From Seison nebaliae (taxonomy: Eukaryota), in contig JALJEE010001175.1 in the NCBI GenBank assembly GCA_023231475.1, positions 1 to 64,000 on the forward strand: DNA of 64,000 nt, given 5' to 3'. Below, piece by piece: positions 9,182-60,628 of this stretch (the stretch's first letter is position 1; every line of letters begins with the position of its first letter). The notes beneath the pieces are model-generated. The model was not told the origin of the DNA. It ran no database searches and saw only the letters and a program-made list of their open reading frames with translations. Made by a program: the position numbers and the translations under genes.

Positions 9182-9639
9182 TCAAGTAAAAATAAATATT
9201 AATGTTATTATTATTAGTATAACCAATCCGCCAATGACGTACCATTGACGACGATCTGTTTTAGTAAATTGAATACACAAAAATTTTTTTTAGGAGAAAT
9301 ATATTGACCTGAACTGATTCTTGTCAATTTTGATAATTTCCTTAAATTCGTTTCCAATTTCGTTTCAGTTTCGCCCATGTCATTACTGAAACTTTGGAGA
9401 TTTCTAGTGAATGCATTAGAAGAAGAATGGAACTTTTGAAGAATAATTAGAACTCAGCTTGATCGTCCAATTCATTTCCGATTAATTCGGATTTATTCTT
9501 TAGACTTGCAACCGTCGTTCCAAGTTGTTCCAATTGTAAGTCTTGTTCATGGACAAGATTCTTTTGAGTTCAAATTAAAAACATAATGGGAATAAATAAA
9601 TCTCACCTCTTGTTTAGCCAACAGACGATATTCTCCCAT
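9182..9639 (-). CDS. STX6: Syntaxin-6-like Qc-SNARE, 102 aa, 4 exons; absent from the ORF track
   Basis: Removing introns 9561-9606, 9404-9453 and 9256-9308 gives MGEYRLLAKQENLVHEQDLQLEQLGTTVASLKNKSELIGNELDDQAENL...SSDRRQWYVIGGLVILIIITLIFIFT*, a SNARE motif plus C-terminal TM. Confidence 0.75.
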
Positions 9640-9823
9640 TATTCTACCAAATTAAATTATTCATAAAAACTTAAAAATAGAACGGAAATTATTGAATTTA
9701 AAAGGCTACTCTTTCAAGTTAATCCAATTTACACAACAATTAGAAATTCATTGTTTTACCATGTTTCACGAGTTGACAATAAAATAATGAGTAAAAGATT
9801 TGTAATCGATAAAGAAGATCAGA

Positions 9824-10429
9824 ATGACGATAACGATAGATGAAAATAGATTAGAGAAAGAATTCAATCAAATTGATTCGATGAATGTGGAGGATCAAGA
9901 TGATCGACCACCACCAAAAGTCTGTTTATTGTGTACGAAAGAATTTCCGAAACCGGAGCAAAGTATTATCCATTTTGCACAATCAAAACATCGACAGAAA
10001 GTTTTCAAAGTTATGAGACATAGTCAGTTGTCCGTTCATCATGATGCTGCCATGAAAGAATTAGAGGAAGCGATGAGGAAGAAAGAAGAGGAAGATGAAA
10101 GAGAACGAGAAATGATAGAAAAAGGCGAAGTCGATGAGATAGTGGAAGAGAAGGAAACGGAAGAAATAATTTTAAGTGATGAAGAACAAAGAATCAAATC
10201 TGAGATTCATGATTATCGTGTCAATTATATGTTCTGGTGTTCCATATGTAATCAAGGTGTCAATAGTGAAAGAATGTTGGTGACACACAAACAATCACCA
10301 AAGCATAAAACTGCTGAAACGGTTTATAACAAATATGCTGATCTTATAAAGAAGCCATATGGAGAAATGAGTGAGGAAGACAGGAAAAAATTATTCTATG
10401 AGAAATATATACCTCCTAAAGAAGATTAA
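9824..10429 (+). CDS. Protein with two U1/matrin-type C2H2 zinc fingers and an acidic linker
   Basis: CLLC...HFAQSKH and CSIC...HKQSPKH. Confidence 0.75.
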   Translation: MTITIDENRLEKEFNQIDSMNVEDQDDRPPPKVCLLCTKEFPKPEQSIIHFAQSKHRQKVFKVMRHSQLSVHHDAAMKELEEAMRKKEEEDEREREMIEKGEVDEIVEEKETEEIILSDEEQRIKSEIHDYRVNYMFWCSICNQGVNSERMLVTHKQSPKHKTAETVYNKYADLIKKPYGEMSEEDRKKLFYEKYIPPKED

Positions 10430-10655
10430 TCTTATTATTCATATTTTTACTTTTCATTTATCAAATTTTCTTATTATTCATTTCTCAACGACAATAAATT
10501 TTCATTGTTAATCCAATATTGTCGTTTTCTCGTTTTATTTAAAATTCTATAAACCTCTTTCGCTCTTAAACTCATTTCAATATATTTGTATATTGTTCAA
10601 AATTAATGAAATGCATTTATAAATGGTGAGTATTTCAAAGATGAGTTGATTTGAA

Positions 10656-13685: not shown

Positions 13686-14165
13686 TTATCCTGAACATCC
13701 ATGACAGCCACATTGCACACACTCAATCACTCGATTATTTTTCATTTTCTCTTTTGGAACTCGACATATGCAATTAGTTCCGAAATTTGTATCTTTTGTT
13801 TGAATACAGCGAAGACAACATAAATTTTCATATCCTAAATGGAAAAAAATTATATGATTAGAGAAGAAATGGGAGGAACCTTGTTTTTTCCATTTTGCAA
13901 TAAGAGCCGCATCACCAATCCTTTCTTTTAAACAATAATCATAAAGTTCTCTGCTGATTACTTTCCTTTTGTAGAACATTTCATAAATGAACCGACTACG
14001 TTGGTGATGGATCTGAAATATCGGCCATAAAGATTCTACTTTTCGCTTACCTTCATGTGATTCAGCTTCAGCTTCCTTCAATTTCGCATTAAGTTCTTCA
14101 ATCATAGGTTCGATTAAATCCCATCCTTCTGGAGGAGGTTTGTTTGAACGTCGTATACGACTCAT
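13686..14165 (-). CDS. BUD31: Splicing factor BUD31/G10; one 45-nt in-frame intron (13835-13879)
   Basis: [54 protein letters not shown]. Confidence 0.97.
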
Positions 14166-14358
14166 TGTCGTTTGTTCGATTCTAATTGATTTATTTCACT
14201 TATAAAATATATTCTTAAACGAATTTATTTTTACTCAACCTATAATAAACGAGATTAAGATTATTCTCGTAAAAATTGTAAGCCGAACTAATTTGAATAA
14301 AATATAAAAATGATAAGTCGAATTTTAATCAATCGTCAAAGATATATAACTGGTAGCC

Positions 14359-14585
14359 GGACAGTTCGACTCCTTTTGAGTTGCTATTCAAAAATGACAG
14401 GTCTACTTGTTTCTTAAAACTTCTTTGGACAGTTCTACTTCTTTTTTTCACTTTGGTGGACACTTCTACTCTTTTTTAAGAAATTAGGGACAGTTCTACT
14501 CCATCGTTTATTGCTTTTAGACAGTTCTACTCCTTTTTTTATAAGACTCCTTTTCCTAAAAATATGGACAGTTATACATCTTTCT
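14359..14585. repeat. Array of ~7 GGACAGTTCTACT(C/T) motifs, period ~30-46 nt; DNA-transposon subterminal repeats
   Basis: Copies near 14359, 14396, 14427, 14458, 14488, 14520 and 14566; adjacent to a MULE remnant. Confidence 0.75.
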
Positions 14586-14930
14586 CTCAAGAAATTCTTT
14601 ACATTGCGCTACCTATTCTCTTCTCTCGTCGAGTCTTTACACTTATTGACAAGATCACTGAATCGAACTTCCATATTACACAAATTCCGAACATAAACAT
14701 CCTAAATAATCGTTCGGTTTTTTCGCATACAGTTCGTTATTACGGGTTATCGCGTGAGATTTCAATTGAAGATTTAAGAGATTTTACTTTTTCCTATGAA
14801 CCCGCAATTTCTATGTCAATCGATATGGATTCTCTCGCTGAATTACACCGATTAATCAATATCGGCGATGATCAAACTTTTTTTTCCACTTTTTTCTAAT
14901 TTATCCCAACGGGAATTTAATTGACAAATA
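14564..14930 (+). other. Small ORF inside the putative MULE-derived element, homologous to 6780-7073; frameshifted near the end
   Basis: Shared TVRYYGLS and DSL motifs; PNGN tail lies in a shifted frame. Confidence 0.5.
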
Positions 14931-15099
14931 ATAATAATAAACTAATCACATTCGTGGAATATTAGAGCCAGTTGTAAGTAACTTCATAATCTCGTATAAT
15001 TTTTTTGTTAACAGAATGAAAGACATTTATTTTTTTTAAACGAAATAAAAAAAACTCATCAGTCTGCATATATTTGTGAAACACAGTGGAAAAAGATGG

Positions 15100-15511
15100 A
15101 AAAATTCCTTCCGTCGAAAATTTTTAACGTCGATATCAAACTTTCATAGTTCTTAATATCGGTAGTTTTTCTCTTTTCAAAAATAAATGGTACAGGAGCT
15201 TTTCATATTTGAAGCATTTAATTAACGCATTTTCAAAAATACTTCTCTGATATAAAAGTGTCCGATTACTTTAAATTCCTACTGTATAAATACTTCAGAA
15301 GGATTTAGTACTTTTAAGATCGTTATTTTTTCTCTCGAAAAAATTGTAAATTGTTTGTTCGAGGAAAATTATTAATCGTGCGGTTGAAATTATTCCACAA
15401 TTTAGGGGGGAATCTTGCATTTTTCGAAATATAATTATCCTCAAAGTACTCATATATTACTTTTGTTTCTTTTGGTATTTGACTTTTTAAATAAGAAAAA
15501 ACAATGTTCAA
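15100..15511 (-). mobile_element. MULE (Mutator-like) transposase C-terminal remnant
   Basis: YFEDNYI...RFPPKLWN...PRTNN motif typical of animal MULE transposases. Confidence 0.7.
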
Positions 15512-15783
15512 TGAACGATAAATGCATCAATGCACGGCACAATGCATCTTAAGGATTCTAACTAAACTGTTTATGAGGCAAAAACAATGATTTATTTAGC
15601 TAAAACGATCGATCCTAATTATTTTGATGTTTCTTTAACAAAATTCGAATTTAAAATCTAAAACGTTAAAATGTGATTATTTGGAATTATTATTTTCAGT
15701 TCGATAATTAAACACTTAACTAATAATAAACTAAATGATGATTTAAATATAATATATTTATGGAGTGTTGGAATGATGAAAAA

Positions 15784-17586
15784 TTATCTTCCCTCTCGGT
15801 CAATAGTTGGACGTGTATTCACCATGTCCATAATTAATTTGTCTCGAGCGTATTCTTCTTTATCTAATTTAACCAATAAGTTCCTTTGGACATCTCTTCC
15901 ATGTTGTGCTTGACGATCGAACATATTATTAATCGCATTCTTATTCGTATCACACACTATAACGATCCTTGTGAGACTGCTTTTTTCTCCGTTGCATTCC
16001 ACATTCATCATTTCCGATGGAACGAAAAGTATGGGACGTGACGGTTGTCTTCCATTAATGCCAAAACCGGTTGGCGTTCTTTTTGAGTGGTAGAACATGA
16101 TGCCTTTACCAGAAGATAATACACGAAAAGTAGGTGATAACTGAACAGCTAATGCTTCATATGAACCACCGTTATTCATATGATCAGCAATACTCTCATC
16201 CATCGCAATCATATATCGATGATTTTCACTACTTTCCAAAACGATGAGAAATGACGAAGTGTAATTTAAGAGACGTTTCTGTAATTGTGTGATACTGAAT
16301 CCGTGTAGTTCGGTATCGAATAAGACATGAATATGATTAACATTTCGAACAAATGATGATGACGGTTGTTGCAAATGTAAATATGGTGGATAATGATCTA
16401 ATTCACACTCATTTTGATAGAATAAATTTATTGTGGATGAAAATGTTGGTTCATTGACATTCAACTTAATTAGTAAAGGAAAGAAGAATTGCACTTGAAA
16501 TGTCCCATTACATAACCACCACAACAAATATGCGTCGTCTATTCGGAATGATGATTTGGAACATGCACCGAGATCCTTTTTCATCATTCGCGCGTCATCA
16601 CAATCACCAGGACTATCCGTAGAGATGTTGCCACTAGTCGTATTCGTTGTCATTAAACTTGAGGTCATAGCTGCATTTTCATTCGTTTTATTTTGGAAAT
16701 TGAATATCTGAATAAAATATTTTCATTTTATTTTTCTTAGATGGATGAACTTGTGTAATTGGAATCAACTGATTATGTGTATTAGTAATTGCACACAATT
16801 GTACCACATTCAATAAGAATATGTGTAAAGATAAGAACATGGCAGGGAAATATTGCATGACCCATTCATTTAGTATCGTCATACTCCCTTTCAACATTTG
16901 ATAATTATCTTCTTTTTTGTTCTTCATAAACACATTCTAATTAACATTATTATAATAAAACCAATAATAAAATTAAGACAAAAATAAAACCAAATGATCT
17001 ACTATTCCATAAAGCAATTGACATTTACCTTCTAATACGTCCAACGTTCTCTTTTGTAATTTGTGATTTTTTTTCAGACGAAAACTTAAATCTTCATTCA
17101 AATAGAACACCAAGCAACAAAGTTTCACCAATTTCTTAGTATCTATAAGGAATTTACAAGGTCATGTTATAGAAAAGTTCAAAATATTTTAGAAACCGAA
17201 AAAATCAGCATTGCCTAACATATTTCCATAAAAATTGATAATTGAACTTTCATTAGCTGGTAAGTTGATGACGGTTTCTAAAACATTCGCATGAAGTAAA
17301 TCATTTAACAATTGATGATAATTCTCCAACATATTTTCCTTTCCAAATAAATCTGATAACAATTTATTGACATAATTCTAAAATTATCGGGAAATTAAAT
17401 AGACAGTTTGAAAATTAATGAGAAATGAACCATCACATGAATAGCCTTCACCAAATTTATTGATTCGAGATTATTAAATCTCTGGATGGCTTGAACACAA
17501 TTTTTGAGAATCAAATAATCATGTCTCTTTTCGGCAGAAATATCTGACACTCTGTTATTATTCACTTTCCCATTCTCATTTCCCAT
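15784..17586 (-). CDS. TLDc-domain protein with likely N-myristoylation; at least 5 exons
   Basis: MGNENGK start; four GTT..AG introns join the ORFs in frame; LFDTELHGFSITQL...FLIVL resembles the TLDc start. Confidence 0.6.
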
Positions 17587-21581: not shown

Positions 21582-23995
21582 ATGATTCCATTACTCAAGA
21601 ACCATCTACCGCACTATTCATTATTGGTTAGAAGTGTAATTCTTTTTTCTCCAAATCCTTTACCGTGTTGTCAGATAATTCACATATTGTTAAATGTAGT
21701 TATCTTCTGCATTATTTTCTATCAATATTTCCAATTTGACAAATATTTCTACTTGAGAGAAATTACAGGAGTTTCATTTACATTATATTCCTTTCTTATA
21801 ATTAATTTATTATCATTTTAGTGGACTATAGCTTTGTCAAGAGCGGCTGCTGGTTGTATCAATTTCAATTGTTTCTTGATTCTTCTACCCATCTGTCGAA
21901 CGATCAATTCAATCTTAAGAAATTTTTTCCTCGTTCTATTTATTAATTAGCTCAATATTTCATTTGAAATTTTTCCTTTTAGAAACGGATAAACATCTTT
22001 TGTCGAATGATTGATAATTCCATCGACTACCATATTATTCTTGCCTATACTCTTATCTTTTGGTCAAGTTAGGTAGCTTTTTTAGAAAACGAATAAATTA
22101 GAAAATGTTATTAGTCCTACACATTCTGGGACATATATTCAATTTAGAACATTTAATAGTTGCTTGGAATTATCAAGAGCAACAGAAATGGAATAACGGT
22201 TCTATGACGGAAAGTGATCGACCTTTAATTCGTTTCTTAATGGGATTAACCAATGACAATAGTGTTGATCCATTTCAAAAGAGACACGTCGGTATCTCAT
22301 CGTATGTTCTCTATACTTGTGCACCTGGATGGACTGGTATTGGAATGGTAATCATTTTGACAATTATGTTCTTTTCAGCTCAATCTTTCGTTCGGTTAAA
22401 CATTTTTTGATTTATTCGAAACTGTATTTATTTTTCTTAGAAAAATATTCTTCAAAACTTTCTTTCGATTACATTATTTATTTCTTCCATTTCTCATATT
22501 ACTTTGTTTTCATGGAATTGGGTTGGATTTTAATTGAATTACTGAAAAAATTATTTAATTTATTTTAATGATAATTTATGATCTGAAGAGAATTAGTGAG
22601 ATATCAAACAAATGTGAAAGTTCATGATCCTAACTACTGTTCCTCACGTATCAATGAATGGACAGAAAGTGAAGGTAAATGTCCTCTACCGACGTTTGAA
22701 GGAACGAAACCTGCATCGTATAAATGGATAATATTTCCTCTTATAATATTTTTTATCGAATTATTAATACGTTTTATACGGCTCTGGGAGAAAGTTGACG
22801 TAGTTGAAGTTCTACCAATTTCTCTGTTTTTTTATTAAATGATGATTATTAAAAAAAGACAATGATTCATTCGTCAAATGTAGTGGAATTACGTTTAAGG
22901 AAATATTCATTAATTGATGAATATGGTCACAATATGAAATATGCTGTCGGTTCGTATCATTCTAAAATAATACTTTATTCATTTTCCACTTTTGTTAGGT
23001 CAATATGTTTCTATTCTTATTCCAAATATTTCTAAATTCGAATGGCATCCCTTCACCATCACATCATCTCCTTCAAATGACACTTTCTTTTCTTTACACA
23101 TCAGAGCTGTTGGCGATTGGACGAATGCTTTGAAGGAGATGGTAGAAGAAATGAACACTGTAACAGCAATCTGCACGGTCAACAATATGACTGAAAATGA
23201 AGTTGATAGGAATATTCAACATAAATTATGGGATCGAAATTATAAGATTCGAGTGAATGGTCCATTTGGAGCACCTGCTCAAGATTACTTCCTTTATGAT
23301 GTGGCTATTTTAATAGGTGCCGGTATCGGTGTTACACCTTACGCATCTGTTTTGTCTGATTTACAGTTAAATATTTTATTTCGACGTATCGAATATTTAT
23401 TCAATTTGAAGATTTCAATTATCCAAACGACTAACAAACGAAAATCCGAATAAGAAATGGAGTTTCGATCGTTTGAAGCATATCCATTTTTATTGGCTTT
23501 GTCCACAAATTAAAGATTTCTCATGGTTTTCACAAATATTCGAACAATTGGATAAAAGTCAAATGAAAATGTATTCACCTCAAAAACAAAACGAATCGTT
23601 ATCTGATTCCATTGGAACATTACTTATCAATAATCGAATTCATTTAACGAGACCTCTTAATCCCGACCAAGTTTTAGACAATTCAAATTTTTTATTCCTA
23701 CATTTATTACCTGAACTTATTTCAGATCAAATCAACAATTGACAATTACTCAAATTTTGTTGATAATTTTACGAAACTCCACCTGACTAAAACTTATTTT
23801 GGACGACCCAACTTCTCCCAACTCATTTTACAAATCAATGAACGATATAGAGACAAATATTCACGAATTGGTCTCTTTTGTTGTGGACCACCAACATTGA
23901 GTGCTTCCTTGAAAAAATTATGTAATGAAATGAATCATCTCAATTCCAAACTGTCCATTCACTCCACCTTGTATTACAATGAGGAAAAATTTTAG
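21582..23995 (+). CDS. NADPH oxidase catalytic subunit, NOX2/gp91phox-like with no EF-hands; 11 exons
   Basis: Ferric-reductase TM His residues, [43 protein letters not shown], terminal EEKF*. Confidence 0.92.
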
Positions 23996-27139: not shown

Positions 27140-30100
27140 ATGAGTGGTGAATCAGGGAATTTCAATCGTTTGATGCCCAAACGAGATATCAATGGAATGA
27201 ATCAATTGAATTATTTGAGGAAGGAAGTTGTACCTCAACAAATCATGATTATGCAGAGGAGACACAATTTGTTCTTGAGCGATAATGGTTTGAATCAGAA
27301 TGATGATTTGAATAATGCGATGCAACGACAATCACCAATGAGTCTCAACCATCAAAGTACGACGGTGAGACATCAATCATTTAACATTCAACAACCGACA
27401 TCTTATTCGTCACATGTGAATGGGAGAATGTATGATCATGGTTTCATGGGGAATGGACAAGATGCAATCGATGTTTATGAATTATTACCATCATCAGCTG
27501 CTGCTACTTATCGAACGAATCCCACATCAACTGTCCAACAGTCAACAAATCGATCAACGTCAAATCAACAACATGTCAATTTAGTCTCTTCACATATCAC
27601 AACAACTTCTAATCAATTAAATTCCACATATTTTCAATCATCAATGAATGAATCAATTGAAGAGATTCTTTCAACAAATTCATTAAATTCATCTATCACA
27701 TCCATCTCCGCTCCATCAACAACAACAACAACTGTTACTACGAATGTTTTATCAACAATTCTTCCACGAAATCCAACAACGAATGAAACGGAACGAGAAG
27801 CAATTCTTCGACGTCAACGTGTTGAAAATTATATGTTAAGTCGAACTGATCAATCAGTTCATCATCAGGATGATGAATTGATGGAATTGGTGACACATGA
27901 TGAACCTGTCAATGTAGATGGAAATAATGTCCTCAATAATTTGGTAGCTGCAGATGGTGTCGATCAGAGTCAAGACGCATCAGAACGAATATCAGAAGAT
28001 GATGATATTTATGTTGAAGATACTTATGCAGAAGATGATTTATCTTCATCACCTTCAATGGAATTGTTACCGTTAACACCGAATGAACGACAGGAACCGA
28101 TTCCTCCTCCAACTGTCGATGATGCATATGAAGCGGATAATGTAGAATTGGAAGAATCAGATTCGGACGAAGATGATGATCGAGATCATACCATTTTCGA
28201 TGAGATTAGAGAAGATCGTCATTTCCATCGAATGTTGAGAAATGGAGATCATCGAATTAATCGAACTGGTAGTCAAACTCGTCGAACGTGGTTTGATGAA
28301 TCAATGCCAGAACGAACAACAGCTGAAGAGGTGAATGAAGATATTTATCGTATAGCTCCTCGACAATTAAGAAGATCGGAAAGAATTAGAAGACGTGCAC
28401 AAGAAGTAAATGGGATGAATAATGATCAACAATCGAATAGTGATCAAATGGAAGACGAAGATGATGATGATTATCATTCAGTAGATGAACATCCAACTAC
28501 TCCAGTAAGTGAAGTACCAACATCATCCAATACCATTATGATAAGTTCGTCGGAAACACGTCCAATCAATAATGAGGATAATAATAATAATAATAGTGTG
28601 AGAATTTCTGATTATAATACGGCAATGCTTGATGTTCCACTTCCTAATAATACGACATATGCTGATTTGGAAGACACGGTTTTACATCGACAAGGATTAA
28701 GGAGACGTCGAAGAAATAATCGAGAGGAAGAATTCCCATTCACATCTACAACTACACCATCTTCCATATTCTCAACAATCATCGATATATCATCATCACA
28801 TCGTCCACGTCGAACTGGAAGTTATTTGACACCTGTTGATTCAAGAGGAGTAGAACTCATCAATAATCATACAACTGTAACAACAACAACAACTCCCACA
28901 ACGACATCAAGTGGAACATTCGATCCAAGCGATTTACTTCTTTTCGACAGTGAACATTATAATGCGATTCGTACAATTCCTAATGAATTCTTCCGAACAA
29001 TGAATTTCAACACTTTCCGAGCGTTCGGTGGAAGTACAACAAGTCAAACGACTACATCGAATAGAACACAACGAACTTATCGTTATTTGATGGGAGAACC
29101 ATCTTTGTCACCAGAAAGAAACTTAACTCTTTCTGCGTCAGCTTCTTATACGGGAACTCCCGTGCCAACACGTACCTCAAATTTCCCGTCTGCTTTACTT
29201 AATTCAGTATTCAGTTCTGGTAATCGATCGATAAGAACAACGACGACAAATGAAGGATCTGGAGTTCCTCCATCTTCCACGACAGATGTTCAAATTCCAA
29301 CATCAGATGTTGAATTTAAGAACAGTTACAATTATTTGTTAACTCAAACACAAAGATGTGGAAATAAGTCATCAAATGGAAATAGTACATCATCGACTAC
29401 TCCTTCATCTTTGAGAACGTTTTACACTTTCGCTAATGATCAACCTAATAATGGTAGTAATAGATCAGAGAGATCTAATCGGACGCCCAGTTTATTACAA
29501 CGTCGTCAAAGAACAATGAATTCAACATTAACTAATAATACATCATCTCAAGAACGATTAAATAATTCTCGAACATCAACAATGTTACGACATCCTTCTC
29601 TTATTAATGATATTGTTGATCATGAAGATCATCGAACTTCCACAATGATCACTGTAACATCATCATCAGTTATTCCTTCAACTATAACATCAGCATCATC
29701 ACCATCTCCTGTGTCGAATGGAACAAGAACATTATACAATAATTTGGTATCTAATGAATTATCAAATTCATCAAATGATTTAATAGAAAATCAGGGAATA
29801 AATGAAGAATCGACTTCTGTTCAAAATACTACTCGACAACTTCAACATACATTCAATACATCTGGTGATTGTGATGATGCATTAAGTTCAACATTTGCTG
29901 TTGTTTATGGTCATAATCGAACATTGAAATCATTTGAAGCACAACGTCAATTATTTCAACAAACTTCAACTGGATCTGCAATTGCAGCAGCACCTCCAAT
30001 TAACAATAACAACAACAACCATAATTCATTACAACCAAGAAGTGGTGGTGGAATTGTTCATTCATCATATAATTGTCATGATAGAAATTTATTTGAAAGC

Positions 30101-31571
30101 GTCTATCATCAACAACAACAACAACAAAAAATAGATGATCAAGAAAATTTATTATTCTCTCCAATTCATGATTCTCCAATTACTGCTCGTTCACCATTAC
30201 CACAATCAATATTAAAATATCGTAAAAATAATGAAACATTAATTAATTCTAATGATTCGATGTTAAAGACGAAAGCACGTCGTCGATTGTTTTGTCCAAA
30301 GAAAGATGATGAAGATATGGATGATCCTATATCACAAATTTTCTCTTCAGAAAATGATGAGAATCGTAATGAATTGATGACAACAGCTCCGAGAGATTCA
30401 GCCGTTTATTATCTTTCACCGTTAACGGAAAGAAGTCAAGTACTCTTACAAAGTCCTCGAAAACCAACTAACAAAATCGCTACCACACCATTCAAAGTTC
30501 TTGATGCACCAGATTTACAAGATGATTATTATTTGAATTTGGTTGATTGGTCTCCTCAGAACCGTTTGAGTGTTGGTCTTGGTAGTTGTGTATATTTATG
30601 GAATGCCTGTACATCACAAGTAACGAAATTATGTGATATTTCAGCAGCAGCAGGAGATCGTGAACGTGTAACATCAGTTGCATGGAGTGAACGATGTGAA
30701 CGAGTAGCTGTTGGGACGGTGAAAGGATCCATTCAAATTTGGGATGCCATAGCTCAGAAGAAGATCGATTGTTTACATGGACATGCAGGACGTGTTGGTA
30801 GTCTAGCTTGGAATGATGATATGATTGCTTCTGGTTCTCGCGATCGTAATATTCTTATTCGAGATTTACGTGCTCCACCATATCGTTCTGAAATCAAATT
30901 ATCATATCATAAACAAGAAGTTTGTGGATTGAAATGGTCACCAGACAAACAACTTTTAGCGTCAGGAGGTAATGATAATAAAATTCTTGTATGGTCTCCA
31001 ATGGCCACTAATGGCGATCAACCATTGCAAGTTCATGATCAACACATTGCTGCTGTCAAAGCCATTGCTTGGTCACCTCATCAACATGGTTTATTAGCTA
31101 GTGGTGGTGGAACAGCTGATCGTTGTATTCGTTTCTGGAATACTTTAACTGATCAATCCCTTCAATGTATCGACACAGGAAGTCAAGTTCATAATTCTTT
31201 TTCTTCTAATCTTTTATTTTAATTATTCTTCTTACAGGTCTGCAATTTGGCATGGAGTAAACATACAAACGAATTGGTCTCCACTCATGGTTATTCGGAA
31301 TATGCTGTTAACGTTTGGTCTTATCCAACAATGAATCGACTAGCCAAACTTACTGGCCATTCAGCACGTGTTCTCTATCTATCCATTTCACCTGATGGTG
31401 AATCAATTGTAACAGGTGCCGGAGATGAAACATTAAGATTTTGGAATGTCTTTTCCAAATCGCGAGCATCTAAGGTTAAATTTTTATTCATATTTGTTCA
31501 TTAAACTAATTTCCGGTTATTTCTTATAGGAAAAACGAAGTATGCTCAACATCTGTGGAATAATACGATAA
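27140..31571 (+). CDS. FZR1: APC/C co-activator Cdh1/Fizzy-related, ~1441 aa with a very long low-complexity N-terminus; 3 exons
   Basis: PFKVLDAPDLQDDYYLNLVDWS, HKQEVCGLKWS, GGGTADRCIRFWN, GAGDETLRFW, C-terminal IR tail; introns 31187-31237 and 31475-31529. Confidence 0.93.
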
Positions 31572-33780: not shown

Positions 33781-33829
33781 AAGTAAAACTTTCGAAGTTC
33801 AAGGTGTTGACGAATTTTCAACTGAATGA

Positions 33830-34430: not shown

Positions 34431-34442
34431 ATAACCACTACC

Positions 34443-37231: not shown

Positions 37232-38333
37232 ATGTTTTTAATCCTCGTCGTAAGTTTATTAGTCTTTCGGAATGCGAAGTGTGCCGATAAGGACGATGAA
37301 GATACAATACTATTAAAACGAGAAATTTTCAGTTTCCTTAGAATTTATTTTAGTTTATAATTTAACCAATTCTTAAAATTTAGCAAATACTGATGCGTAT
37401 GAACAACAGGTGCAAGTTAGAAGAGAATATAATGAAAGGTTTGCTGGTTTGACAAGTTTGAACAGGAATGGATTAACTGATCGTGAAGTTCGTGAGAACG
37501 AACATAATTCAGTCGTTCTTCGAGTTGTTCAAATTACACCTCACATTGGAATATTTGATTCTGAATTAATGGCGTCAATTGTTGGAAAATTGTTCTTGGA
37601 CTTCCGAAATGTTTTATATGGAAATATGCACGACTTTAATGGTAGACCTATGTGCACTATAATGATTCAATATCGGTATACCAATATGGTATGTTTCAAC
37701 CCAGTTGAAAAGACGATTCGTGGTTATTCTCTCCATGGTAATGATATTGAACCCTTCGTTAAACAATTAACATTTATTTATTGTTTGCAAATGGTGTATT
37801 TTGAAGAAATGGCAGATACGGACTGCGCATTTACAATGTACCTCGAAAAGGATAATATAGCTATTACCGCCAAAAACGCGAATAATGTAATGAACTCAGT
37901 AGCTATGGATTTTATTAGAACTGCATACTATAGTGCGGTAGATTTAACGGCTGCATTGGACATGAAAGGTTTTACTAGGGAAATGAGTCAATTGTCTACA
38001 AGTTCCGATACAACATTACGAGAGGAGAAAACAGAAATACAGGGAAAAGTTTACGAACCAATTGAAGTTTTTCAATACATGGGACCCGATGGGGTGCCTG
38101 CTATGCTTGACAACGTTAAGGAAAAAGCTCCGACTAGACCAACCCAAACACAAATACCCACTACTACAACAAAGCTCGAAAACGTTCTCTTAACTGCTGG
38201 AACAAAAAGATCATCAACTGGTGTGGATCCTACTCCAAATAAGACCTTTGAAACTTACGTGCCACCCCCACCCGAAGAAACTACCAAAAAAAGTAAAGAA
38301 GAAGGAACTACAACTACTACAACAACTAGCTAA
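37232..38333 (+). CDS. Secreted protein of unknown function with a Thr/Pro-rich tail; 2 exons
   Basis: MFLILVVSLLVFRNAKC signal peptide; intron 37332-37383 joins in frame to ORF 37410-38333. Confidence 0.7.
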
Positions 38334-39650: not shown

Positions 39651-40271
39651 ATGACGAAATGTACATTAATATTCTTATTCTTTCTCAATATTTTTATTTT
39701 CAAAAATGTGGAAGGATTGGGCGAATATCCGTTTATGGGTATATTTTAATTTGCAAAAATTTAAACTGATGAATCTATTTTAGATCGAGAACGTACTGAC
39801 AGATATAATTATTATCGGGACATCGATGACACTTTTCAAATTGCTACGAAAGGTATATTTCCATTGTATAAAAGCACCGAAGTACTAAATTGTGCGATAA
39901 GTACACACCTTATGACGGATGACCCTCTTGTCATTGCAAAAATTACGGGTTATGGAATTCTCAATCATTTCGTAATAAAACCATTACAATCAAAAAACGC
40001 AGGCCAGTTTAATAATTTCTGCTTTCGATCCTCGCTTAGTACGATGCAAGTGGGTGGTTGTGTCCGTACGAACAAACAAGGCAAAGCTGAAGTTTTTATT
40101 GTCTATCGAGGTTGGTTAGACATTAAACCTTATGCCACCCATTTGGTTTCCATTATCAACAATATCAATTTCAATGTAATGAATAAGGAAAATATCATTA
40201 CTTTCCGTATCCATAAATCAAAAAATGTTGTGGAATTTGAGAAATCTTTCTTATACCTAGTTGATGCTTGA
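39651..40271 (+). CDS. Secreted protein of unknown function; 2 exons
   Basis: MTKCTLIFLFFLNIFIFKNVEG signal peptide; intron 39739-39783 (GTA donor) restores the frame. Confidence 0.6.
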
Positions 40272-40440: not shown

Positions 40441-41405
40441 ATGGTTGACTTCAATGAATATATTTCTGATTTTAAGAAAGTTGTCGATAAGAAAGATACG
40501 TTATATACGATCGAATCAAAAAATTGTGAATTAGATCCTGTTCATTTTATAAAATTCTTCTGTTTCCTCAAATTCATCTTTCTCTTACATCTTCTTGTTA
40601 GTCCCACCATATAGTCAGATGTTATTTAGTAGTTCAAGTGACTGATGGCTTAAAAGAATTGATCGGTTAAATGATTTCTTAATGTAAATTATTATTAATT
40701 TTCTTAGATAAATTAGGCAATTATTGTAAATCAATGGTGAATGAAAATGAAGATCCAGACTTAAATGCAATTCCTGGAATCATAAATTCTTATGCAACCA
40801 TATTCACTTATGTTACGGAAGTTAATATTAGTTGGATAGGATTCTAATAATTACACCTTCTTCCAATTCTTAATTAACTAGTGTGCTATGCATCACTTAA
40901 CAAACCAATTGAACATAATCAACGAACATGAAACATTAAACAATTGTCGAATAGTCTGTGTGAATTATAAGGTTGAGAATATTCCTTTAATGAAAATAAT
41001 TGTTTGTTATCGCTTTTTTGTTAATAGATTCAATATAGATTATTAGAAGGTTGGTATGTTGAGTCGAAAGAAGATACGGAAACGATTGGAAATGATGAAG
41101 CTGAAATCGAAGGAATCGATATCATAAAAAAGTATTTGGATTCTCTCGCATCGACATTGACACTTCGAAAGAAAGTGGATAAGAAATCAGTTACACGAGT
41201 AGTACCTCTCACTTTACTCAAACAATTATTAACATTACCCGAATTATTCACAATTGATGAACATTTCGAAATTAATGAATTACCTTCTACCAATTTTATT
41301 GAAAGCGGTTTATTTTTTTATCTTTCTTCCAATACATTTTTTTTATTTGTGAATGAAACAGAACTGTTATGGCCGAAATCGTTGAACGATTATTCGTACA
41401 CTTAA
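40441..41405 (+). CDS. TEX47-like (BLUF-like fold) protein; 6 exons
   Basis: Five GTT..AG introns give one ORF; IPGIINSY..E, RIV...IQYRLLEGW and ESELLWP resemble the TEX47 family from memory. Confidence 0.55.
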
Positions 41406-42716: not shown

Positions 42717-43659
42717 CTAACTGAGAATTGTATTTATGTAAAAGTTGTTGGGACGTGGTTTCATTGGAGACTTGCCCGATTTGTTTCCATTAGATTTTAC
42801 CATCTTATTCTCAGATATGGCATTGTTATGCATCATATTGTAGCACATCATCGTAAGTAGGGCGAGAAGGTTGGATTTGTTATTCATTGGATTGGATGGA
42901 GATTGCAACGGACTAATATTACTTTTCATAATTTCCTGTTTAATATCTTCATTCTTCAACTGGTGTTGTGTTTCTGTATGACGTCGTAAGTCAACTTTAC
43001 GTTGGAAGGATTTCGAACATAATTGACATGCGAACGGTTTGTAACCAGTGTGTTTTCGCGTATGAGTAATAAGATTTGATGATTGTGAAAAGGCCTTTCC
43101 ACATACTAAACATTTATGAGGCTTCTCACCTGTTTTTTTAGAATGAAGGATAAAAATAAGTTACACTGCTGAAATAGATGAAACCTGTATGGATATAAGT
43201 ATGTTTCTTCATATCACTTTTCTGGTGAAATCGTTTGGTGCAATAAGGACACGCATACGGTCTAGTATCACTATGAATAAGTAGATGTGTAGTCAATGTT
43301 GAGGAACGTTTAAAGCATTTGCCACATTGTGGACAAGGAAATCCACGTTCACCAGATGTTCCGTTACATGTTTCGATAGTAGCCGAACTCTGAGAAGAAG
43401 ATGGTGAGGCTCGGTTTTCGTTCTTGACAACGATCGAATTAGTCAAATCACAATTATTTTGCATATCATTCATGTTGGAAGTTGTTGAAGAATTTAATAA
43501 TGAAATGTTGGATGATGAGTTTGAAGAACAATTATTAATCATCAATTCTTCGTTATCCGTTGAAGAGATCGTTAGTGGGAAATCGTTATGAACGAATTTT
43601 CTTTTTTTTAAATCTTCTATAACGGAAACGATATCGAACAAACGTCTTTTTGTAGACAT
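42717..43659 (-). CDS. GFI1: Gfi1/Senseless/PAG-3 family C2H2 transcription factor with 4 fingers; 2 exons
   Basis: [60 protein letters not shown]; intron 43130-43184. Confidence 0.92.
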
Positions 43660-48779: not shown

Positions 48780-49130
48780 AATCGTTTTACTCACATCAGT
48801 TGTTTAACATTTAATAAATGACAATCTATTCTCTTTTGAAAGGTCGACGTTGAAGACATGAGATAGATGCTTGAATTCCATAAAAATCCGTGCAGAATGT
48901 ACGAAATAGCTGGATTTTCAGTTCGATTGAAAATAGTTTACATCGATGGTGAAAGGAATAAAATGCTCGGATAAATTTCGATCTAATTTTATCGATGGAC
49001 GATGAAGATTTCAAACGATTATCGATTCTACATCCGAGGAAAATGAGATCATTATAAACTATTTCTCGAAGTTCAGAATAGCGAGGTAAAATCGTTCGAT
49101 TAGTTATGATTTTGCACTTCCTGTTGTTAC
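48780..49130 (-). mobile_element. Degenerate non-LTR retrotransposon fragment
   Basis: KIQLFRTFCTDFYG resembles the post-RT region of LINEs; homologous to 33830-34090. Confidence 0.55.
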
Positions 49131-49905: not shown

Positions 49906-52407
49906 ATGAGAATGTTAAGATATTTTTCAAAAACATTTAAACGTTATCAATCGACGATCCGATATTTAAGAAGAAAAAAATCGGAAGATTTGGAGTGGAG
50001 AAGTAATGAATTGGCGCGATTGAGTAATTCATCTCTTCTTTTTAAATCGAAAAAATCGAGTGGTCTCATCACTTGTGTGTTGAAGACGCGGAAACAAAAT
50101 GAGAAATTTTCAAATTCCTTTTTGCCATTAACATTGGATTTTTTATTGAGAGATGCAGCACTAAGAAAAATTCCAAATAATAATTCGAAACGTGAAATGT
50201 TTATGAAAAATGAAGATATTCTTATTAGTCGATTATTAGATCGGTCGATTCGACCATTATTTTATGAACGAGCTACCAAAGAATTATCAGCCTTACAGAT
50301 ACGATGTGATATATTGTCTTGTGATGATGGCGATGAAATTTTCATAGATACATTGAATTCTTTATCTTTTCATCTTCATCGAGAAATGAATCATTTGTGG
50401 AATGGACCAGTTGGGGCAACGAATCTTTATCTTTATCCGAATTTAAGTGAAAATGAAAAATATAAATATTCTTGGAAGAAGTTAAATGAGAGACATGTCA
50501 TGGAATTGACAGTTGCTTCATTAACAAACGGGAAAATTTTAATGATCAACACTAAAATAAAAGAAGCGATTTCTGATGAGGATTTCCTTAAATATCTTGA
50601 AATCGCAAAAGATGAAGCGAAATGTGTTGCACAATTAATTGTTAATGAATGTGAGGAAAAAGGTTATGGGATTAAGGAAAAAGTGAAAATTGATGAGAAT
50701 TCTCAAAAATTAATGAAAGAATTTTGTGAAAAAGATGTTGAACAGATTCTACTTGATTCAACTCTCAATAAACAATCACGAGATGATAATTTAAAAATAG
50801 TGAAAAGTGAAATAGTAGAAAAAATTAATTGTATCAAAGAGGAAAGTTTGGAATCATCAGAACTATCAGAATATGATGATTTATTCAAATTGACTGATAA
50901 TGAATTAGATGAAATCTTCCAAAATATTATCAAACTCAAATTGAGAGAATTGACACTTGAAAAAAATCAACGTTGTGATGGTCGTTCAGTTACGGATGTT
51001 CGACCAATAAATTGTCAAGTCGATATCATTCCTAATGTTCATGGATCGGCATTATTTCAAAGAGGTCAAACGCAAGTACTTGCCACAGTAGCAATGGATT
51101 CATTTCCTACAAATGTTGTCACAGATGAAATTGGAGAAAAGAAGAATGAAGATTTCTTTCTCCATTATGAATTTCCTTCTTATTCGACAAATGAGATAAA
51201 TCGTTTTTCTGTCGGTCGACCAAATCGTCGAGAAATCGGTCACGGAACTCTCGCTGAGAATGGTGTCCGACCAATGTTCATTTCAAAATTCATATCATTA
51301 TCATCTTCAACATCTCCCAATAAATCGATTCCATCACTTCCATCTGAAAATTGTGCAGAATCGACAAATTATCGTTTTATTGATACTGAATCAATTTTGA
51401 TCGATGAACCAAAATTAGAAGATGAAAATTCTCAGAAACTTCCCGTAACGACGAGAGTATTTTGTCAAGTTCTCGAATCAAACGGTTCCAGTTCAATGGC
51501 ATCTGTATGTGCTGCATCAATGGCATTGTTGAGTTCTGGTAATCGACTTATTGAACAAGTAGCTGGAATAGCTATGGGATTATTTTATGAGAATGATGAT
51601 AACTATCGAATTTTAACTGATCAAATGGTTTCTTCTTCTTCTTTTCGTTTCTGTCTAATTTTATAATTTGATCATTTCAGGGGATGGAAGATTATTTCGG
51701 AGATATGGATTGTAAAATTATTGGGACAGAAAATTCTATAACTAACATTCAATTCGACACTAAACTATCTGGAGTTCCATTCTCAATTATCAAAGAAACG
51801 ATAATTCAATCGAAAAGTCTTTTTTCTTTTCAATAAAACTTTCATCAATTTTCATTCAGATGGACGTAGTTCGATTTTAGAAAAAATGAAAAATACAATA
51901 AATTCTTCTACTAAATCGTCTGTTCAGCCCATTTCAAAATTTTTATATATTCCCACACATCTCAGATCGAAATTTCTGGGAATAGGTGCGTATAATTTAG
52001 AGAAATTGAAAAAAATTGTGAAAATAAATTCTATCGACGACAATTATTGGTTCTTATTCGCTGATAATCAATTGCAAATGGATAAATGTGAAGATTTGGT
52101 GAAAGATATTTTGAAAAAAGAATTCAATGAATCAATTCTTCAATTCAACACAATTTATCGGGGGAAAATTGAAGAAATTCGTGAGAATGGTTTTATGGTG
52201 TCACTCTTTCCACAAATGCCACCAACCTTCTTGCCCAATTCTCAAATTGATCAGAGAAAAGTGAAACATGCATCTTATTTCGGTTTGAAAGTTGGAGATG
52301 AGATCGATGTCAAATACTTCGGACGTGATCCAGTTAATGGTCAGATGAGATTATCGCGAAAAATCCTCCAACAAATTGGAGGCAGATCAAATAATTTATT
52401 TAAGTAG
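49906..52407 (+). CDS. PNPT1: Mitochondrial polynucleotide phosphorylase; 3 exons
   Basis: SRLLDRSIRPLF, RCDGR, HGSALFQRGQTQV, RREIGHG, ESNGSSSMAS, EDYFGDMD, KH/S1 domains; basic transit-like N-terminus; introns 51628-51680 and 51817-51859. Confidence 0.93.
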
Positions 52408-56499: not shown

Positions 56500-58090
56500 C
56501 TACACTTCCACATTATCCTACGGAATTAAATCATTTCTATATTATTTGTTTAGATCGATCAGAAATGGAGATTGTTGGGAATGCATCTTCGATAAATCAA
56601 TATTCCGCTTCTTTCGCATACGTCATTAAGTAGTTCCATATCCTCCATCTCCACACTTAAAGACTATAGAAAGGGTAATGGAAGACCATGTTGGGAGAAA
56701 GTGTGCTAAGCGACAGATTGAATTCAAATGAAAATTTGTTTTTTCCTTTCCGTTATAATCAGATATCCGTTTTAGTTCGTTCTAAATCCCGAGTTCCATT
56801 GAATATTGTCGTAAGAAAATATTTTATTTTAACTGAAATAAAAGTTTAATTTCATTCTCTCACTACAAATAACCTTACGCAATAATTTAACATTGAATAA
56901 TCCTCCAATTTATTCATATCATATTCATTAAGTCTATCGATGGCATGCGTATGTGATGTCATGGAGCAATCATATTTTATCATCATGACACCTTATAGTA
57001 TTGTGGGATGTGATGTACACAACTGATATGATAATGTTACCAATAGAAAAGTAGATGACACTGATGATAGGAAAGTCGATGGGAACCACATCTGTTGGCA
57101 GTGTATAATTGATTTATTACAGTGGTACAGTAAGAAATGTGAGTAGAAATTTATTGATGAGTAAACGTAACATCATAACATTTGTCATAATATCGAGAAT
57201 TGTTGAACGACATTGAATTTAAATGAATAGTTTTGAGGTATAACCATTCGAAATCTACCAACATCAATTTCAGAATGAAAATTTCTAAAAATTTACAGTG
57301 GAAATTTTTTTCGCTTTAAAATATTTTCCTTTTCCACTTTGACCCTCGTGAAGTGGATGGACGAAGACACATCATTTCGAAAGTAGATTTATCACTTGAT
57401 TTTGTTTTTAAGGAATGCCTGTCCTAACAAGTAAGCGACGTAACTGTTCCATATGTTCCTTGTAACTTTTAATTAGACCTCACATATAATAATTATGAAT
57501 AATTCTCCACTATGTCCATCAAACACATAGAGGAGAACTGATGATATTCGATTAGTTGTGACGACTAAATTTTCTATTTGCGATATTTTTATGGATAGAC
57601 AGCACTAGTTGAATAGTTGAATAATGGAATTTGTCAAAGAAATGTAAAAACATAATTACCTAGGCGGATTTCTGTAGTTACAGAAAGAGGAATAAGCAAA
57701 TTGGAGAAAAAATTCAATAAGACTAATAGTTTTCGACAGGTCCATATATTTGAAGTGGAACTACTTAGGCTTGAATGGTGCCCTTAATTATTTTGTTATT
57801 AGAATCATGGGAACGTTGATGGAGAAAAAATGAGAAAACAAGTTTGGCCTCAATTGAATTATTTCATTTAAATCCTGGAAATACATCAATATTCTGATAT
57901 TATAAGCATCATCCTCTTTCCATTTTTGTTCTTCATAAAAATATTTTTGATGTTTATTGAGATTTATCGATTTTCTTTTATTGTTTATTATATATTTCTG
58001 TATAATTATTAATCGTACGATTTTCCCCAATAATCTCCAAATGATGTTGATGGTATCAATATGTTATTGTGAGTCTTCGATTTCCTTCCA
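56500..58090 (-). other. Possible lineage-specific multi-exon gene; structure only partly resolvable
   Basis: Several short exons can be joined by 44-59 nt GT..AG introns, but there is no clear start, stop or homology. Confidence 0.25.
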
Positions 58091-58487
58091 ATTCACAATT
58101 TTAAGGTTTTCATTCTTTACTTTCAGATTGAAACTAATCCTTCAATCCTTCTCCTCATCATTTAGGAATGGGATTACCTGACATTCACTATAGTAAAATT
58201 TCAATTAAAAAATATGCTTTGCATTCTCCCAAATCTCTTTTTGTTTTTATAAGTTTTAGTAAAAATAATGACGATTAGTATGAGATAGAAAAGAATTAAT
58301 AAATCTTCCAAGTTAAATAAAGAAATATTTTTGTCGTTTTAATATAATTAGTTTAAATTTTTCGTTCGATTTCACAATAGATGTGTCTAACAGTTTGAGG
58401 AAGGAATCAGTTAAAATAAAGAAAATTAAGTTGAACGATTAAACTAATTGTACGAGATGATGTTGGTGAGCGATTGAGAAAAGATAA

Positions 58488-60628
58488 ATGGAACAATTTG
58501 AACATCGCCATTCGACCAATAACAAAACTCTAATGGATATAAAGAAGACATATAATTTATCAAAAAATAGACATGACGATCATTCATCACCATTGACTGT
58601 GACACGTATTATGTCAAAAAAGGAGTCAATGATTCGTAACAATCCTAATATGTATAATAAGGAGAACTGCCGACACTTACGTATCACATCTAATGGAAAT
58701 AATGGGAAAGTAACGAAATTTGATGAATTATCATCACCTGGGAAGCATGAGAAATTAATGAGAATAGATAATGGGAATGATAATCGTAAGAAAAGTCAAA
58801 TTAAACATCGAATTCCCAAACGCCTAACAACATTCAATTTACCGTTAACACAAAACTTTCATAATCTCTCAACAAAATCCCACATAATGGATGAGAATGA
58901 ACCAAAAACATTGAATTCAATAACAAATAGTGTCGATACGTTGACGGATGTGAGGAGACTTCGTAACAATGAGAAGAGTTTCTTAAATCTCCCAAACGAC
59001 GCACTGGCAAATGGAGATATTAGTCGTAAGAAATCAGTTCAATTTCCGATGATAAGAAAAAGTAATGAAAATACATCATTAAGTAACCATCATTCCCGTC
59101 AAAATGATAGTAGATTGAAGCGTGTACAACATTCGTCTCTATTTCCTAAAGGTTAAATTCATTACTTCAAAACATAAAAATTATTCTTTTCTGAACAAAC
59201 AGACGTGTTGAATAAATATTCGAATGAATTGACTCCATTCGAAAAAATCGAAATATTCTCCTATAAAGATATTTTTTATTTTGGAAATAATGCAAAAAAA
59301 CTATCGTCCCATTCAAATGAAATTAATCATCAATTGAAGAAATTTTTATCTTATTTCAAATCTTCAGAGAATGAAGCATTGGATCGGATTGATAAGAAGC
59401 TTTTCGTTGCAATCACAGCAAACATTTACAATGATGAACATGGTAACTACAAGAAAATGTTGAATGATCATATTTCCTACCGATATGAAATCATCGATAC
59501 TTTGGGTAAAGGAAGCTTTGGTCAAGTTTTATTGTGCCAAGATCATAAAACTGGACATCATGTCGCCATAAAACTTATACGTAATAAGAAGAAGTTTTTC
59601 TCCAAATTATTTTTAGGAATTTCACATTTTGTAAATTAAAAAAAAATAGATTTCGCGATCAAGGAGCGATAGAAGTAAAGATTTTAAAACATTTGAAAAA
59701 AATTGATTTAAAATCAAAAGAACGATCAATTAATTGTGTACATATTCAAGATTATTTTTATTTCCGTAATCATTTATGTATTTCATTCGAAGTTCTTGGG
59801 TTCGTTTCATTTGGTTAACAATAAAGACGTAATTTCAATTTCTAGAAAGAATCTATATGAAGTGTTGAAAAGTATTCGATATAAAGGATTTCCATTAAAA
59901 AATATTCGGATAATCGCAAAACAAATACTTCAATGCTTATCTGTTCTAGAAGAAGAAAAAATTATACATTGTGATTTGAAACCTGTTAACATTTTCCTTT
60001 AATTCGTCACACATTTCAAGTTAAATAGGAAAATATCTTGATCGTTGGGAAGAATATTGAACAAGTTAAAGTTATTGATTTTGGTAGTGGTTGTTATGAA
60101 TCCCAACAAAGTTCTATTTTACAATTTCTAATTTAAAGAAGTTTTTGTAGTTTATACTTATATCCAAAGTCGTTTTTATCGAGCACCTGAAATTGTTCTG
60201 GGATTACGATATACTTGCTCGATTGACATGTGGAGTTTTGGATGTATTTTATGTGAACTTCTTAATGGTTCGCCAATATTCCCCGGTGAAAACGAAGCAG
60301 AACTTTTAGCAATGATTATGGAATGTCAAGGTATTCCTCCACAATCCTTACTTGACAAAGGTAAAAGAAGTAGCTTATTTTTCGATGTAGATCTATCACC
60401 ACGGAAACTCGTCAATTCGAAAGGAGTGAAAAGAATACCAGATTCTAAACGTTTAAGTAAATTGTTGAAAACGAAAAATAGAGATTTCATTGATTTCGTG
60501 GACTGCTGTTTACAGTTAGCCATTTTTCTTTTTCAAACGTTAATACATTGGCATTTTCTAGATGGGAAAGGACAAACAGAATTAAGGCCTCTGAAGCATT
60601 TAATCATCCGTGGTTATTAGATATCTAA
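58488..60628 (+). CDS. Class II DYRK kinase (DYRK2/3/4-like); 7 exons
   Basis: [44 protein letters not shown]; six GTT introns splice in frame. Confidence 0.93.

What the first reader, a model, noticed from the sequence alone, without database searches (positions are those of the whole stretch)
9182..60628. Rewired splice code: almost all mini-introns have GTT donors with no GTRAG consensus
Seen: I hand-spliced 14 genes, most anchored by conserved protein motifs, and obtained 57 introns of 43-67 nt. Of these, 53 start GTT. SPAG16 is 11/11 (gttcag, gtttct, gttatt, gttaaa, gttaat, gttcgt, gttcga, gttcta, gttaat, gtttca, gttttc); NOX is 10/10, UPB1 9/9, DYRK 6/6, TEX47-like 5/5 and TLDc 4/4. The exceptions are two GTC, one GTG and one GTA. 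Positions +4 to +6 look unconstrained, +5G is mostly absent, and the last exon base can be A, C or T. Established: animal U2-type donors are GT(A/G)AGT, read by the U1 5' end (ACUUAC) and the U6 ACAGAGA box. Inference: this lineage recognises 5' splice sites differently, through altered U1/U6 snRNA or U1C/LUC7/PRP8 specificity, or through length-driven intron definition. AT-richness alone would favour GTA as much as GTT.
Basis: partly seen in the sequence, partly recalled or inferred. Interest (0 to 1): 0.9.

Follow-up and report, generated by a model that had tools for sequence, protein, structure and literature searches.

The report
Rotifer relative rewrote its splice donors
In this DNA from the small marine animal Seison nebaliae, 58 of 61 short introns inferred from gene structure start with GTT, usually right after an A or G, instead of the usual animal GTA/GTG signal, so its splicing machinery likely reads intron starts by a changed rule.

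Summary
The window is Seison nebaliae (seisonid rotifer): its NOX exon matches an NCBI Seison protein at 100%. Of 61 curated introns (40-67 nt, 14 genes), 58 start GTT, 2 GTC, 1 GTG; only 1 fits GTRAG. A donor-neutral spliced alignment to non-Seison homologues gives GTT at 22 of 22 firmly placed introns. A self-training gene model seeded with GTRAGT still converges on GTT. Within intron-length distance of true acceptors, GTA is available 16 times and never used, so AT-richness or length alone does not explain it. New here: the last exon base is a purine in 57 of 61 (rule R|GTT), and +4 to +6 are weakly, not un-, constrained. No RNA junction or Seison snRNA could be obtained, so the mechanism is inferred: most likely a U1 5' end changed to pair +3U, as reported for Entamoeba, with U5 reading the exon purine and short length supplying the rest. 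My literature searches found no report for Seison or another animal. This scan noted GTT donors before in several protists (unchecked notes).

The parts
9182..9639 (-). Short SNARE-like gene (syntaxin-6-like, name recalled; no Pfam hit on its short exons); introns 9606-9561 (GAG|GTGAGA, the one canonical-looking donor), 9453-9404 (GTT), 9308-9256 (GTC)
   Evidence: hand model; Pfam blank
13686..14165 (-). BUD31; intron 13879-13835 (45 nt, GTT)
   Evidence: exons match PF01125 positions 1-96 and 98-145, junction forced
15784..17586 (-). TLDc-domain gene; 4 introns with donors at 17430, 17196, 16990, 16750, all GTT
   Evidence: GHMM; PF07534
17974..20417 (+). SPAG16-like WD40 gene; 11 introns, all GTT (donors 18083, 18209, 18635, 19082, 19261, 19450, 19596, 19728, 19899, 20018, 20187)
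   Evidence: (model identical to P0391)
21582..23995 (+). NADPH oxidase; 10 introns, all GTT (donors 21627, 21771, 21933, 22068, 22395, 22522, 22809, 22950, 23366, 23671)
27140..31571 (+). FZR1/CDC20-like; introns 31187-31237 and 31475-31529, both GTT
   Evidence: PF24807 98-223 then 224-292 across the first intron
37232..38333 (+). Unnamed gene; intron 37332-37383 (GTT)
   Evidence: GHMM only
39706..40271 (+). Unnamed gene; intron 39731-39783 (GTT)
   Evidence: GHMM only
40441..41405 (+).
   Evidence: GHMM
42717..43659 (-). GFI1-like zinc-finger gene (name recalled); intron 43184-43130 (GTT) inside the HT-GEKP linker
49906..52407 (+). PNPase (PNPT1-like); introns 51628-51680 (GTT) and 51817-51859 (GTC)
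   Evidence: PF01138
52521..54110 (+). Beta-ureidopropionase (UPB1); 9 introns, all GTT (52628, 52864, 53010, 53149, 53284, 53400, 53499, 53666, 53792)
   Evidence: margins 9.0-31.7 bits; banning GTT costs 217 bits
54576..56104 (+). PLAT-like gene (name recalled); 5 introns counted, all GTT (54792, 55034, 55643, 55776, 55985); an 86-nt call at 55377 was dropped as uncertain
   Evidence: GHMM only
58488..60628 (+). DYRK-family kinase; 6 introns, all GTT (59152, 59594, 59800, 59985, 60111, 60515)
   Evidence: model identical to P0241

Best explanation
Seison nebaliae's short GT-AG introns start with a purine followed by GTT instead of GTRAG, and its major spliceosome likely reads this signal with a U1 snRNA whose 5' end has changed to pair with the U at +3. 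Shown from sequence: the R|GTT rule, the near loss of GTRAG and of a strong +5G, lengths of 40-67 nt, T-rich YAG acceptors, and no sign of a transposon origin. Inferred: (1) an A in U1 opposite +3, as in Entamoeba, fixes +3U; (2) the exon purine at -1 is read by uridines of U5 loop 1 (A by Watson-Crick, G by wobble pairing); (3) pairing of +4 to +6 with the U6 ACAGA box has become weak; (4) the narrow length window supplies the information that the shortened donor lacks (about 6.7 bits left). The change appears to have been made on old introns in place rather than by new insertions. Confidence that the R|GTT rule is real and genome-wide: about 0.9; the figure below is for the whole mechanism.
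For: Organism: P0121 100% and P0391 99% identical, both named Seison nebaliae. Donor-neutral profile alignment without Seison proteins: 30 of 33 introns GTT, 22 of 22 with margin >=9 bits; the three others (GTC, GCA, GTA) have margins 1.1, 1.1, 5.2 bits and are not in the annotation; stable over four parameter sets, 23 of 27 to 30 of 31 GTT; banning all GTT donors costs 72-217 bits per gene, banning GTA+GTG costs 0-5. Self-training GHMM: 64 of 68 GTT from a neutral start, 55 of 57 from a GTRAGT-seeded start. Unsupervised pair counts: GTT is 1.2-1.3-fold over expectation 40-64 nt before T-rich YAG (modest). Discrimination: GTA 0 of 16 used. -1 purine 57 of 61. Precedent: Entamoeba, the one +3U lineage in that study, has a U1 changed from ACUUAC to ACAAAC (bioRxiv 10.1101/2022.06.08.495308, passages). 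U5 loop 1 versus U6 classes and the weak +3/G44 contact: PMC11732430 (passages).
Against: No Seison U1, U5 or U6 was seen. No RNA junction was seen. With standard U1 pairing, -1 faces C9 and should favour G over A, yet A (27) equals G (30); and +5G is no commoner at true donors than at unused GTT sites (0.19 vs 0.18), so U1 pairing beyond +3 is not evident in any register. Most lineages with atypical donors keep a standard U1 (yeasts, Giardia, Thecamonas, Micromonas; Saccharomycotina section heading and U6 result in PMC10581693), although those are +4 changes. One canonical-looking donor is used (GAG|GTGAGA at 9606), so GTR can still be spliced. All counts come from one 64-kb window; 16 of the 61 introns rest on a model trained on the same window, which also produced at least one false GTT intron (APC11, 26287).
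Confidence: 0.42

Rival explanations
1. U1 is weak, bypassed or lost, and +3U is selected later, at transfer to U5/U6/PRP8: +3 faces U6 G44 (U by wobble, C by Watson-Crick pairing) or a changed ACAGA box, while U5 loop 1 holds the exon purine.
For: Two of three exceptions are GTC, which G44 would pair; no U1 signature at +4 to +8; +3 faces G44 and C. merolae splices without U1 (PMC11732430); Entamoeba GUUUGU is noted to pair better with U6 ACAGA; C. elegans mett-10 mutants move to sites such as AA//GUUGU (PMC11347140).
Against: With G44 alone C should be at least as good as T, yet T:C is 58:2 against about 4:1 in intron interiors; ACAGA was invariant in 240 fungal species with shifted donors.
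Confidence: 0.25
2. Standard U1 reads these donors one base out of step (+1-shifted or +2/+3 bulge register), a rare human mode made the rule with help from U1C/LUC7.
For: In that register +3U pairs A7 and -1 faces U10, which pairs both A and G: 0.93 of true donors versus 0.39 of decoys; GTTA is followed by A or G in 19 of 20 donors against 54 of 128 for TTA in intron interiors. Registers described in PMC4856993 and PMC9311317 (passages).
Against: The register's G-C pair at +6 is missing: +6G 4 of 61, none of 15 after GTTAA, 0.07 versus 0.15 in decoys; 37 of 61 donors have a pyrimidine at +4; intronic GTT decoys also show GTTA[A/G] in 12 of 15.
Confidence: 0.2
3. No change in recognition: donors have decayed to bare GT, length defines the intron, and T at +3 reflects T-rich intron composition.
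For: Introns are 49% T and 44 of 76 internal GTN are GTT; lengths are narrow.
Against: 58 of 61 versus 49% T: p=6e-15; GTA 0 of 16 used; positions +4 to +6 are less T-rich than the interior, so +3 is a spike, not a tract.
Confidence: 0.04
4. The introns are a burst of transposon-derived introners that carry GTT ends.
For: Uniform ends and lengths.
Against: Longest shared substring among 61 introns is 13 nt, versus 13-15 in shuffles; terminal inverted repeats of 6 nt at most; several positions match human introns as I recall them (UPB1 codons 35 and 291 in the numbering of 8pt4_A; not confirmed in any paper I could read).
Confidence: 0.03
5. Artefact of hand splicing, annotation training or of this window.
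For: No RNA evidence; one window.
Against: Searches are independent of the annotation and of a GTT prior; 14 unrelated genes on both strands agree.
Confidence: 0.04

Closest known systems
Entamoeba atypical donor GUUUGU(U) with co-evolved U1 (Roy and Bowser, bioRxiv 10.1101/2022.06.08.495308; passages read)
   Same: Near-fixed U at +3 of GT-AG introns across a genome.
   Different: Entamoeba is an intron-poor amoeba with a long strict donor (+4U, +5G, +6U; 88-90% GUUUGU). Seison is an intron-rich animal (up to 11 introns per gene here), GTTTGT occurs 0 of 61, +5G 12 of 61, and the extra information sits at exon -1.
Human +1-shifted and bulge +2/+3 U1 registers (Roca and Krainer 2009, not held, seen only as cited in PMC4856993 and PMC9311317)
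   Same: Pyrimidine at +3, A at -1, purines at +4/+5 in a subset (23 of 61).
   Different: Rare in humans (54 sites in the +2/+3 class of Table 3) and anchored by +6G, which Seison lacks.
AG//GUNNN (U5-loop-1) class of 5' splice sites (PMC11732430, PMC11347140; passages)
   Same: Information on the exon side, weak U6-side match.
   Different: That class leaves +3 free and coexists with a GURAG class (44% in C. elegans); Seison fixes +3U, has AG at -2/-1 in only 11 of 61 and GURAG in 1 of 61.
GTT-donor protists noted by this scan (e1-7132971, e1-9778931, e1-9738631; unchecked notes)
   Same: GTT donors, in one case without +5G.
   Different: Protists, partly with 19-32 nt introns or AAG acceptors; Seison is a metazoan with mostly YAG acceptors (51 of 61).

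Membership tests
U2-type (major) spliceosomal introns | GT...AG ends whose removal restores the reading frame | tested here: met
   61 of 61; frames match homologues and database proteins
U2-type (major) spliceosomal introns | T-rich 3' end with YAG | tested here: met
   -3 is T 33, C 18, A 10, G 0; interior 49% T
U2-type (major) spliceosomal introns | GTRAG-type donor consensus complementary to standard U1 | tested here: not met
   1 of 61; mean about 5 of 11 U1 pairs, no excess at +5 over decoys
U2-type (major) spliceosomal introns | Branch-point motif | tested here: inconclusive
   seven motifs at or near shuffled counts; C. elegans also lacks one
U2-type (major) spliceosomal introns | Removal from RNA | not testable with these tools
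   no RNA holder listed; held part of the published transcript table gave no match
Entamoeba-type transformed donor | +3U nearly fixed | tested here: met
   58 of 61
Entamoeba-type transformed donor | +4U, +5G, +6U fixed | tested here: not met
   GTTTGT 0 of 61
Entamoeba-type transformed donor | Compensatory U1 5' end | not testable with these tools
   no genome; no snRNA in window
+1-shifted U1 register donors | +3 pyrimidine and -1 pairing with U10 | tested here: met
   54 of 58 GTT donors have a -1 purine
+1-shifted U1 register donors | +6G (and +7U) pairing with U1 C4/A3 | tested here: not met
   +6G 4 of 61, below decoys
U12-type (minor) introns | Long invariant minor-class donor with A at +3 (recalled) | tested here: not met
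   +3A 0 of 61
Introner elements | Sequence-similar intron families or terminal inverted repeats | tested here: not met

The most novel reading that the evidence does not exclude
Seison is an animal that rewrote the 5' splice code of its whole, intron-rich genome in place, on ancestral introns, by changing an snRNA pairing element (U1 5' end or U6 ACAGA box) that is otherwise fixed in animals, and largely gave up U6 pairing at +4 to +6.
Probability: 0.5. Interest if true: 0.9.

Novelty: new variant of a known kind. Interest (0 to 1): 0.75.

Why it matters
Transformed donor signals are described mainly in intron-poor microbes, and one open question is whether signals and machinery can co-evolve only after most introns are lost. 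An intron-rich animal with a near-fixed +3U and almost no GTRAG would be a counter-example. It makes three questions testable with existing public genome and transcriptome data: which molecule reads +3, whether U6 pairing at +4 to +6 is dispensable, and when in Syndermata the switch happened. In practice, splice-site models trained on other animals would under-score Seison introns.

Tried and rejected
RNA evidence: the run search listed no RNA holder. X1 and X2 laid evenly through introns with no spliced joints, so they behave as DNA; X6 and X7 laid nothing. This is no evidence on expression. The published transcript-to-genome table (PMC8351084 supplement 2) is held cut (19,906 rows); 30 exon/gap-length patterns from my gene models found only chance matches in other genes, so the uncut file may still hold these genes. 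Second lineage: low-depth diverged contigs in X2/X3 cover parts of UPB1; one spans exon 53054-53148 and aligns on to intron +8 with diverged sequence beyond both ends, but the +3 base is not listed, so it is only a hint of shared intron positions. Sister-taxon control: the one metagenome scan with a UPB1 alignment kept 80 of 524 loci, whose matches span about 1.0-1.2 kb for 340-384 residues, i.e. without introns, so it gave no donors. Human UPB1 junctions: five papers searched (searches cover six) gave only c.917 and c.1072, which Seison lacks; the matches at codons 35 and 291 are recalled. Roca and Krainer 2009 is not held. Rows dropped before counting: APC11 26287 (removes the RING core), two antisense models (31065-, 43189+; 7 introns), two unanchored models (12330-, 11459-; 6 introns), PLAT 55377; rows added: 5 NOX introns from P0121 and 3 SNARE introns by hand. 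Branch-point motifs: none above shuffles. Duplex energies with standard and two hypothetical U1 ends all separate donors from decoys and do not choose between models. +4G is rare (2 of 61) but not rarer than intron interior (p=0.2), so it is not part of the rule.
Full report
Source. The window is 28-36% GC. A NOX exon matches P0121 at 100% and a SPAG16 exon matches P0391 at 99%; NCBI names both as Seison nebaliae proteins. Seison is a seisonid rotifer (Syndermata) with a genome of about 46 Mb and compact genes (PMC8351084, passages). No whole genome is held and the window has no snRNA, only one tRNA.

Are the introns real and placed correctly? Four tests. (1) Exact mapping of database proteins to the DNA with no splice rule gave 10 NOX and 6 DYRK gaps; each has one GT-AG placement, and all 16 start GTT. 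(2) A spliced profile aligner that scores every GT alike, using 90 UPB1, 49 NOX, 70 DYRK and 1 SPAG16 homologues from other organisms, placed 33 introns: 30 GTT, 1 GTC, 1 GCA, 1 GTA. All 22 whose donor beats the next parse by 9 bits or more are GTT; the three others have margins of 1.1-5.2 bits. Four parameter sets gave 30 of 33, 29 of 32, 30 of 31 and 23 of 27 GTT; banning every GTT cost 72-217 bits per gene, banning GTA and GTG cost 0-5. (3) A self-training gene model reached 64 of 68 GTT from a neutral start and 55 of 57 from a start seeded with GTRAGT; the neutral model reproduced P0391 and P0241 exactly. (4) Pfam positions run on across the BUD31 and FZR1 introns without gap.

Curated set. 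After dropping 15 GHMM introns judged false or unanchored and adding 8 (listed under Tried and rejected), 61 introns in 14 genes remain: 36 backed by homologues or database proteins (36 GTT), 9 by conserved motifs (6 GTT, 2 GTC, 1 GTG) and 16 by the model alone (16 GTT). Lengths are 40-67 nt, median 50. I did not recover a GTA intron.

More than chance. Still, 58 of 61 gives p=3e-19 against 41% and 6e-15 against the 49% T of intron interiors. Of GT sites 39-70 nt upstream of true acceptors, GTT is used 58 of 83 times, GTC 2 of 13, GTG 1 of 13, GTA 0 of 16 (Fisher p=1e-10). Length plus GT identifies the donor uniquely in 23 of 61, plus +3T in 44 of 61.

Anatomy of the signal. Position -1 is A 27, G 30, C 2, T 2; at unused GTT sites it is a purine in 95 of 243. 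+3 carries 1.2 bits, -1 0.8 bits, +4 to +8 0.15 or less each; the total is about 6.7 bits. Against intron interior there is a weak excess of +4C, +5G and +6A, and GTTA is followed by a purine in 19 of 20 donors. Acceptors are T-rich and end TAG 33, CAG 18, AAG 10. No branch motif rises above shuffles, and the introns share no sequence or terminal repeats.

How it most likely works. The ends, acceptors and reading frames mark these as major-class introns (shown). Which molecule fixes +3U is inferred. With the standard U1 end (sequence from PMC9311317), +3U is a mismatch and +5G is no commoner than at decoys. In Entamoeba, the one +3U lineage in the study I read, U1 changed to complement the donor, whereas lineages with +4 changes kept standard U1 (also PMC10581693). 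I therefore put a changed U1 first (0.42), with U5 loop 1 accounting for the -1 purine (PMC11732430). Selection at U6 G44/PRP8 with weak or absent U1 (0.25) fits the GTC exceptions. A +1-shifted standard U1 (0.2) fits -1 A/G and GTTA[A/G] but lacks +6G. Composition, introners and artefact are each below 0.05. Against a strict new code: one canonical-looking donor, GAG|GTGAGA at 9606, is used in my hand model of the SNARE gene.

In place, not by insertion. Read against the human chain 8pt4_A, Seison UPB1 junctions fall at codon 35 (phase 2) and after codon 291 (phase 0), where I recall human introns 1 and 7; the papers I read confirm only that human exon 7 includes c.851-853 and that intron 8 precedes c.917. 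This step is recalled, not shown.

RNA. None of the listed runs is on record as RNA. The first part of the published transcript table shows 36 distinct gaps of 42-92 nt, 30 of them 42-62 nt, so short introns are spliced in this species; 32 of the 36 are written as deletions rather than introns (my count), which, as I recall GMAP's rule, happens when its splice-site model scores the ends low. This is a weak genome-wide hint. The file is held cut and my genes were not found in it; supplement 1 of that paper was not read.

What is in print. Searches: Seison nebaliae/genome/intron, splice site/consensus/Acanthocephala/Seison/intron (4 papers), donor/GTT/U1/U6, rotifer/Adineta/splice site/donor, Seison plus spliceosom (0 papers), bdelloid/GTT/splice site. 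None reports this donor. PMC8351084 has no statement on splice signals in the passages found; the Pomphorhynchus genome paper has no occurrence of 'intron'. Subscription journals are mostly outside the library, and I have no donor data for bdelloids, monogononts or acanthocephalans, so the trait may be wider than Seison. This scan's notes list GTT donors in several protists and none with all the words for an animal; nothing is on file for this genome.

Verdict. Real and well above chance; a new variant of transformed 5' splice signals, closest to Entamoeba but in an intron-rich animal and with a different shape (R|GTT, little beyond). Mechanism untested. Interest 0.75.

Noticed in passing
window 896-2275 (-), 3502-4935 (+), 7722-9110 (+), 35358-36959 (-): Four intronless paralogous ORFs of about 460-480 aa share N- and C-terminal motifs; family not identified.
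   Followed up: no
window 27140-31186 (+): FZR1/CDC20-like gene has an N-terminal low-complexity stretch of about 1,100 aa in one long exon ahead of the WD40 domain.
   Followed up: no
window 38897-39424 (+), 26132-26476 (-), 24424-25971 (-), 61680-62333 (-): EF-hand (calcineurin-B-like, recalled), APC11, a protein kinase and an ependymin-like gene appear intronless in their coding parts among intron-rich neighbours.
   Followed up: partly
window 14312-15639: High-copy repeat: contig depth 300-800 against 15-30 around it; a related coding-like fragment lies at 6765-7073.
   Followed up: no
window 33783-34558, 48826-49140, 61017-61406: Short ORFs that look like reverse-transcriptase or retroelement remnants (resemblance recalled, not scanned).
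   Followed up: no
window 34584-34657 (-): One tRNA gene.
   Followed up: no
window 32971-32926 (-): A further likely 46-nt GTT intron in an unnamed membrane-protein gene, with an unused canonical-looking GTA site inside it; not counted.
   Followed up: partly
window 53051-53156, 53834-54077, 26175-26293: Low-depth (2-4x versus about 28x) contigs about 83-91% identical in exons point to a second diverged lineage in runs X2 and X3.
   Followed up: partly
L013-L079: Intronless UPB1 relatives 57-66% identical to animal UPB1 lie on metagenome contigs up to 238 kb, possibly prokaryotic.
   Followed up: no
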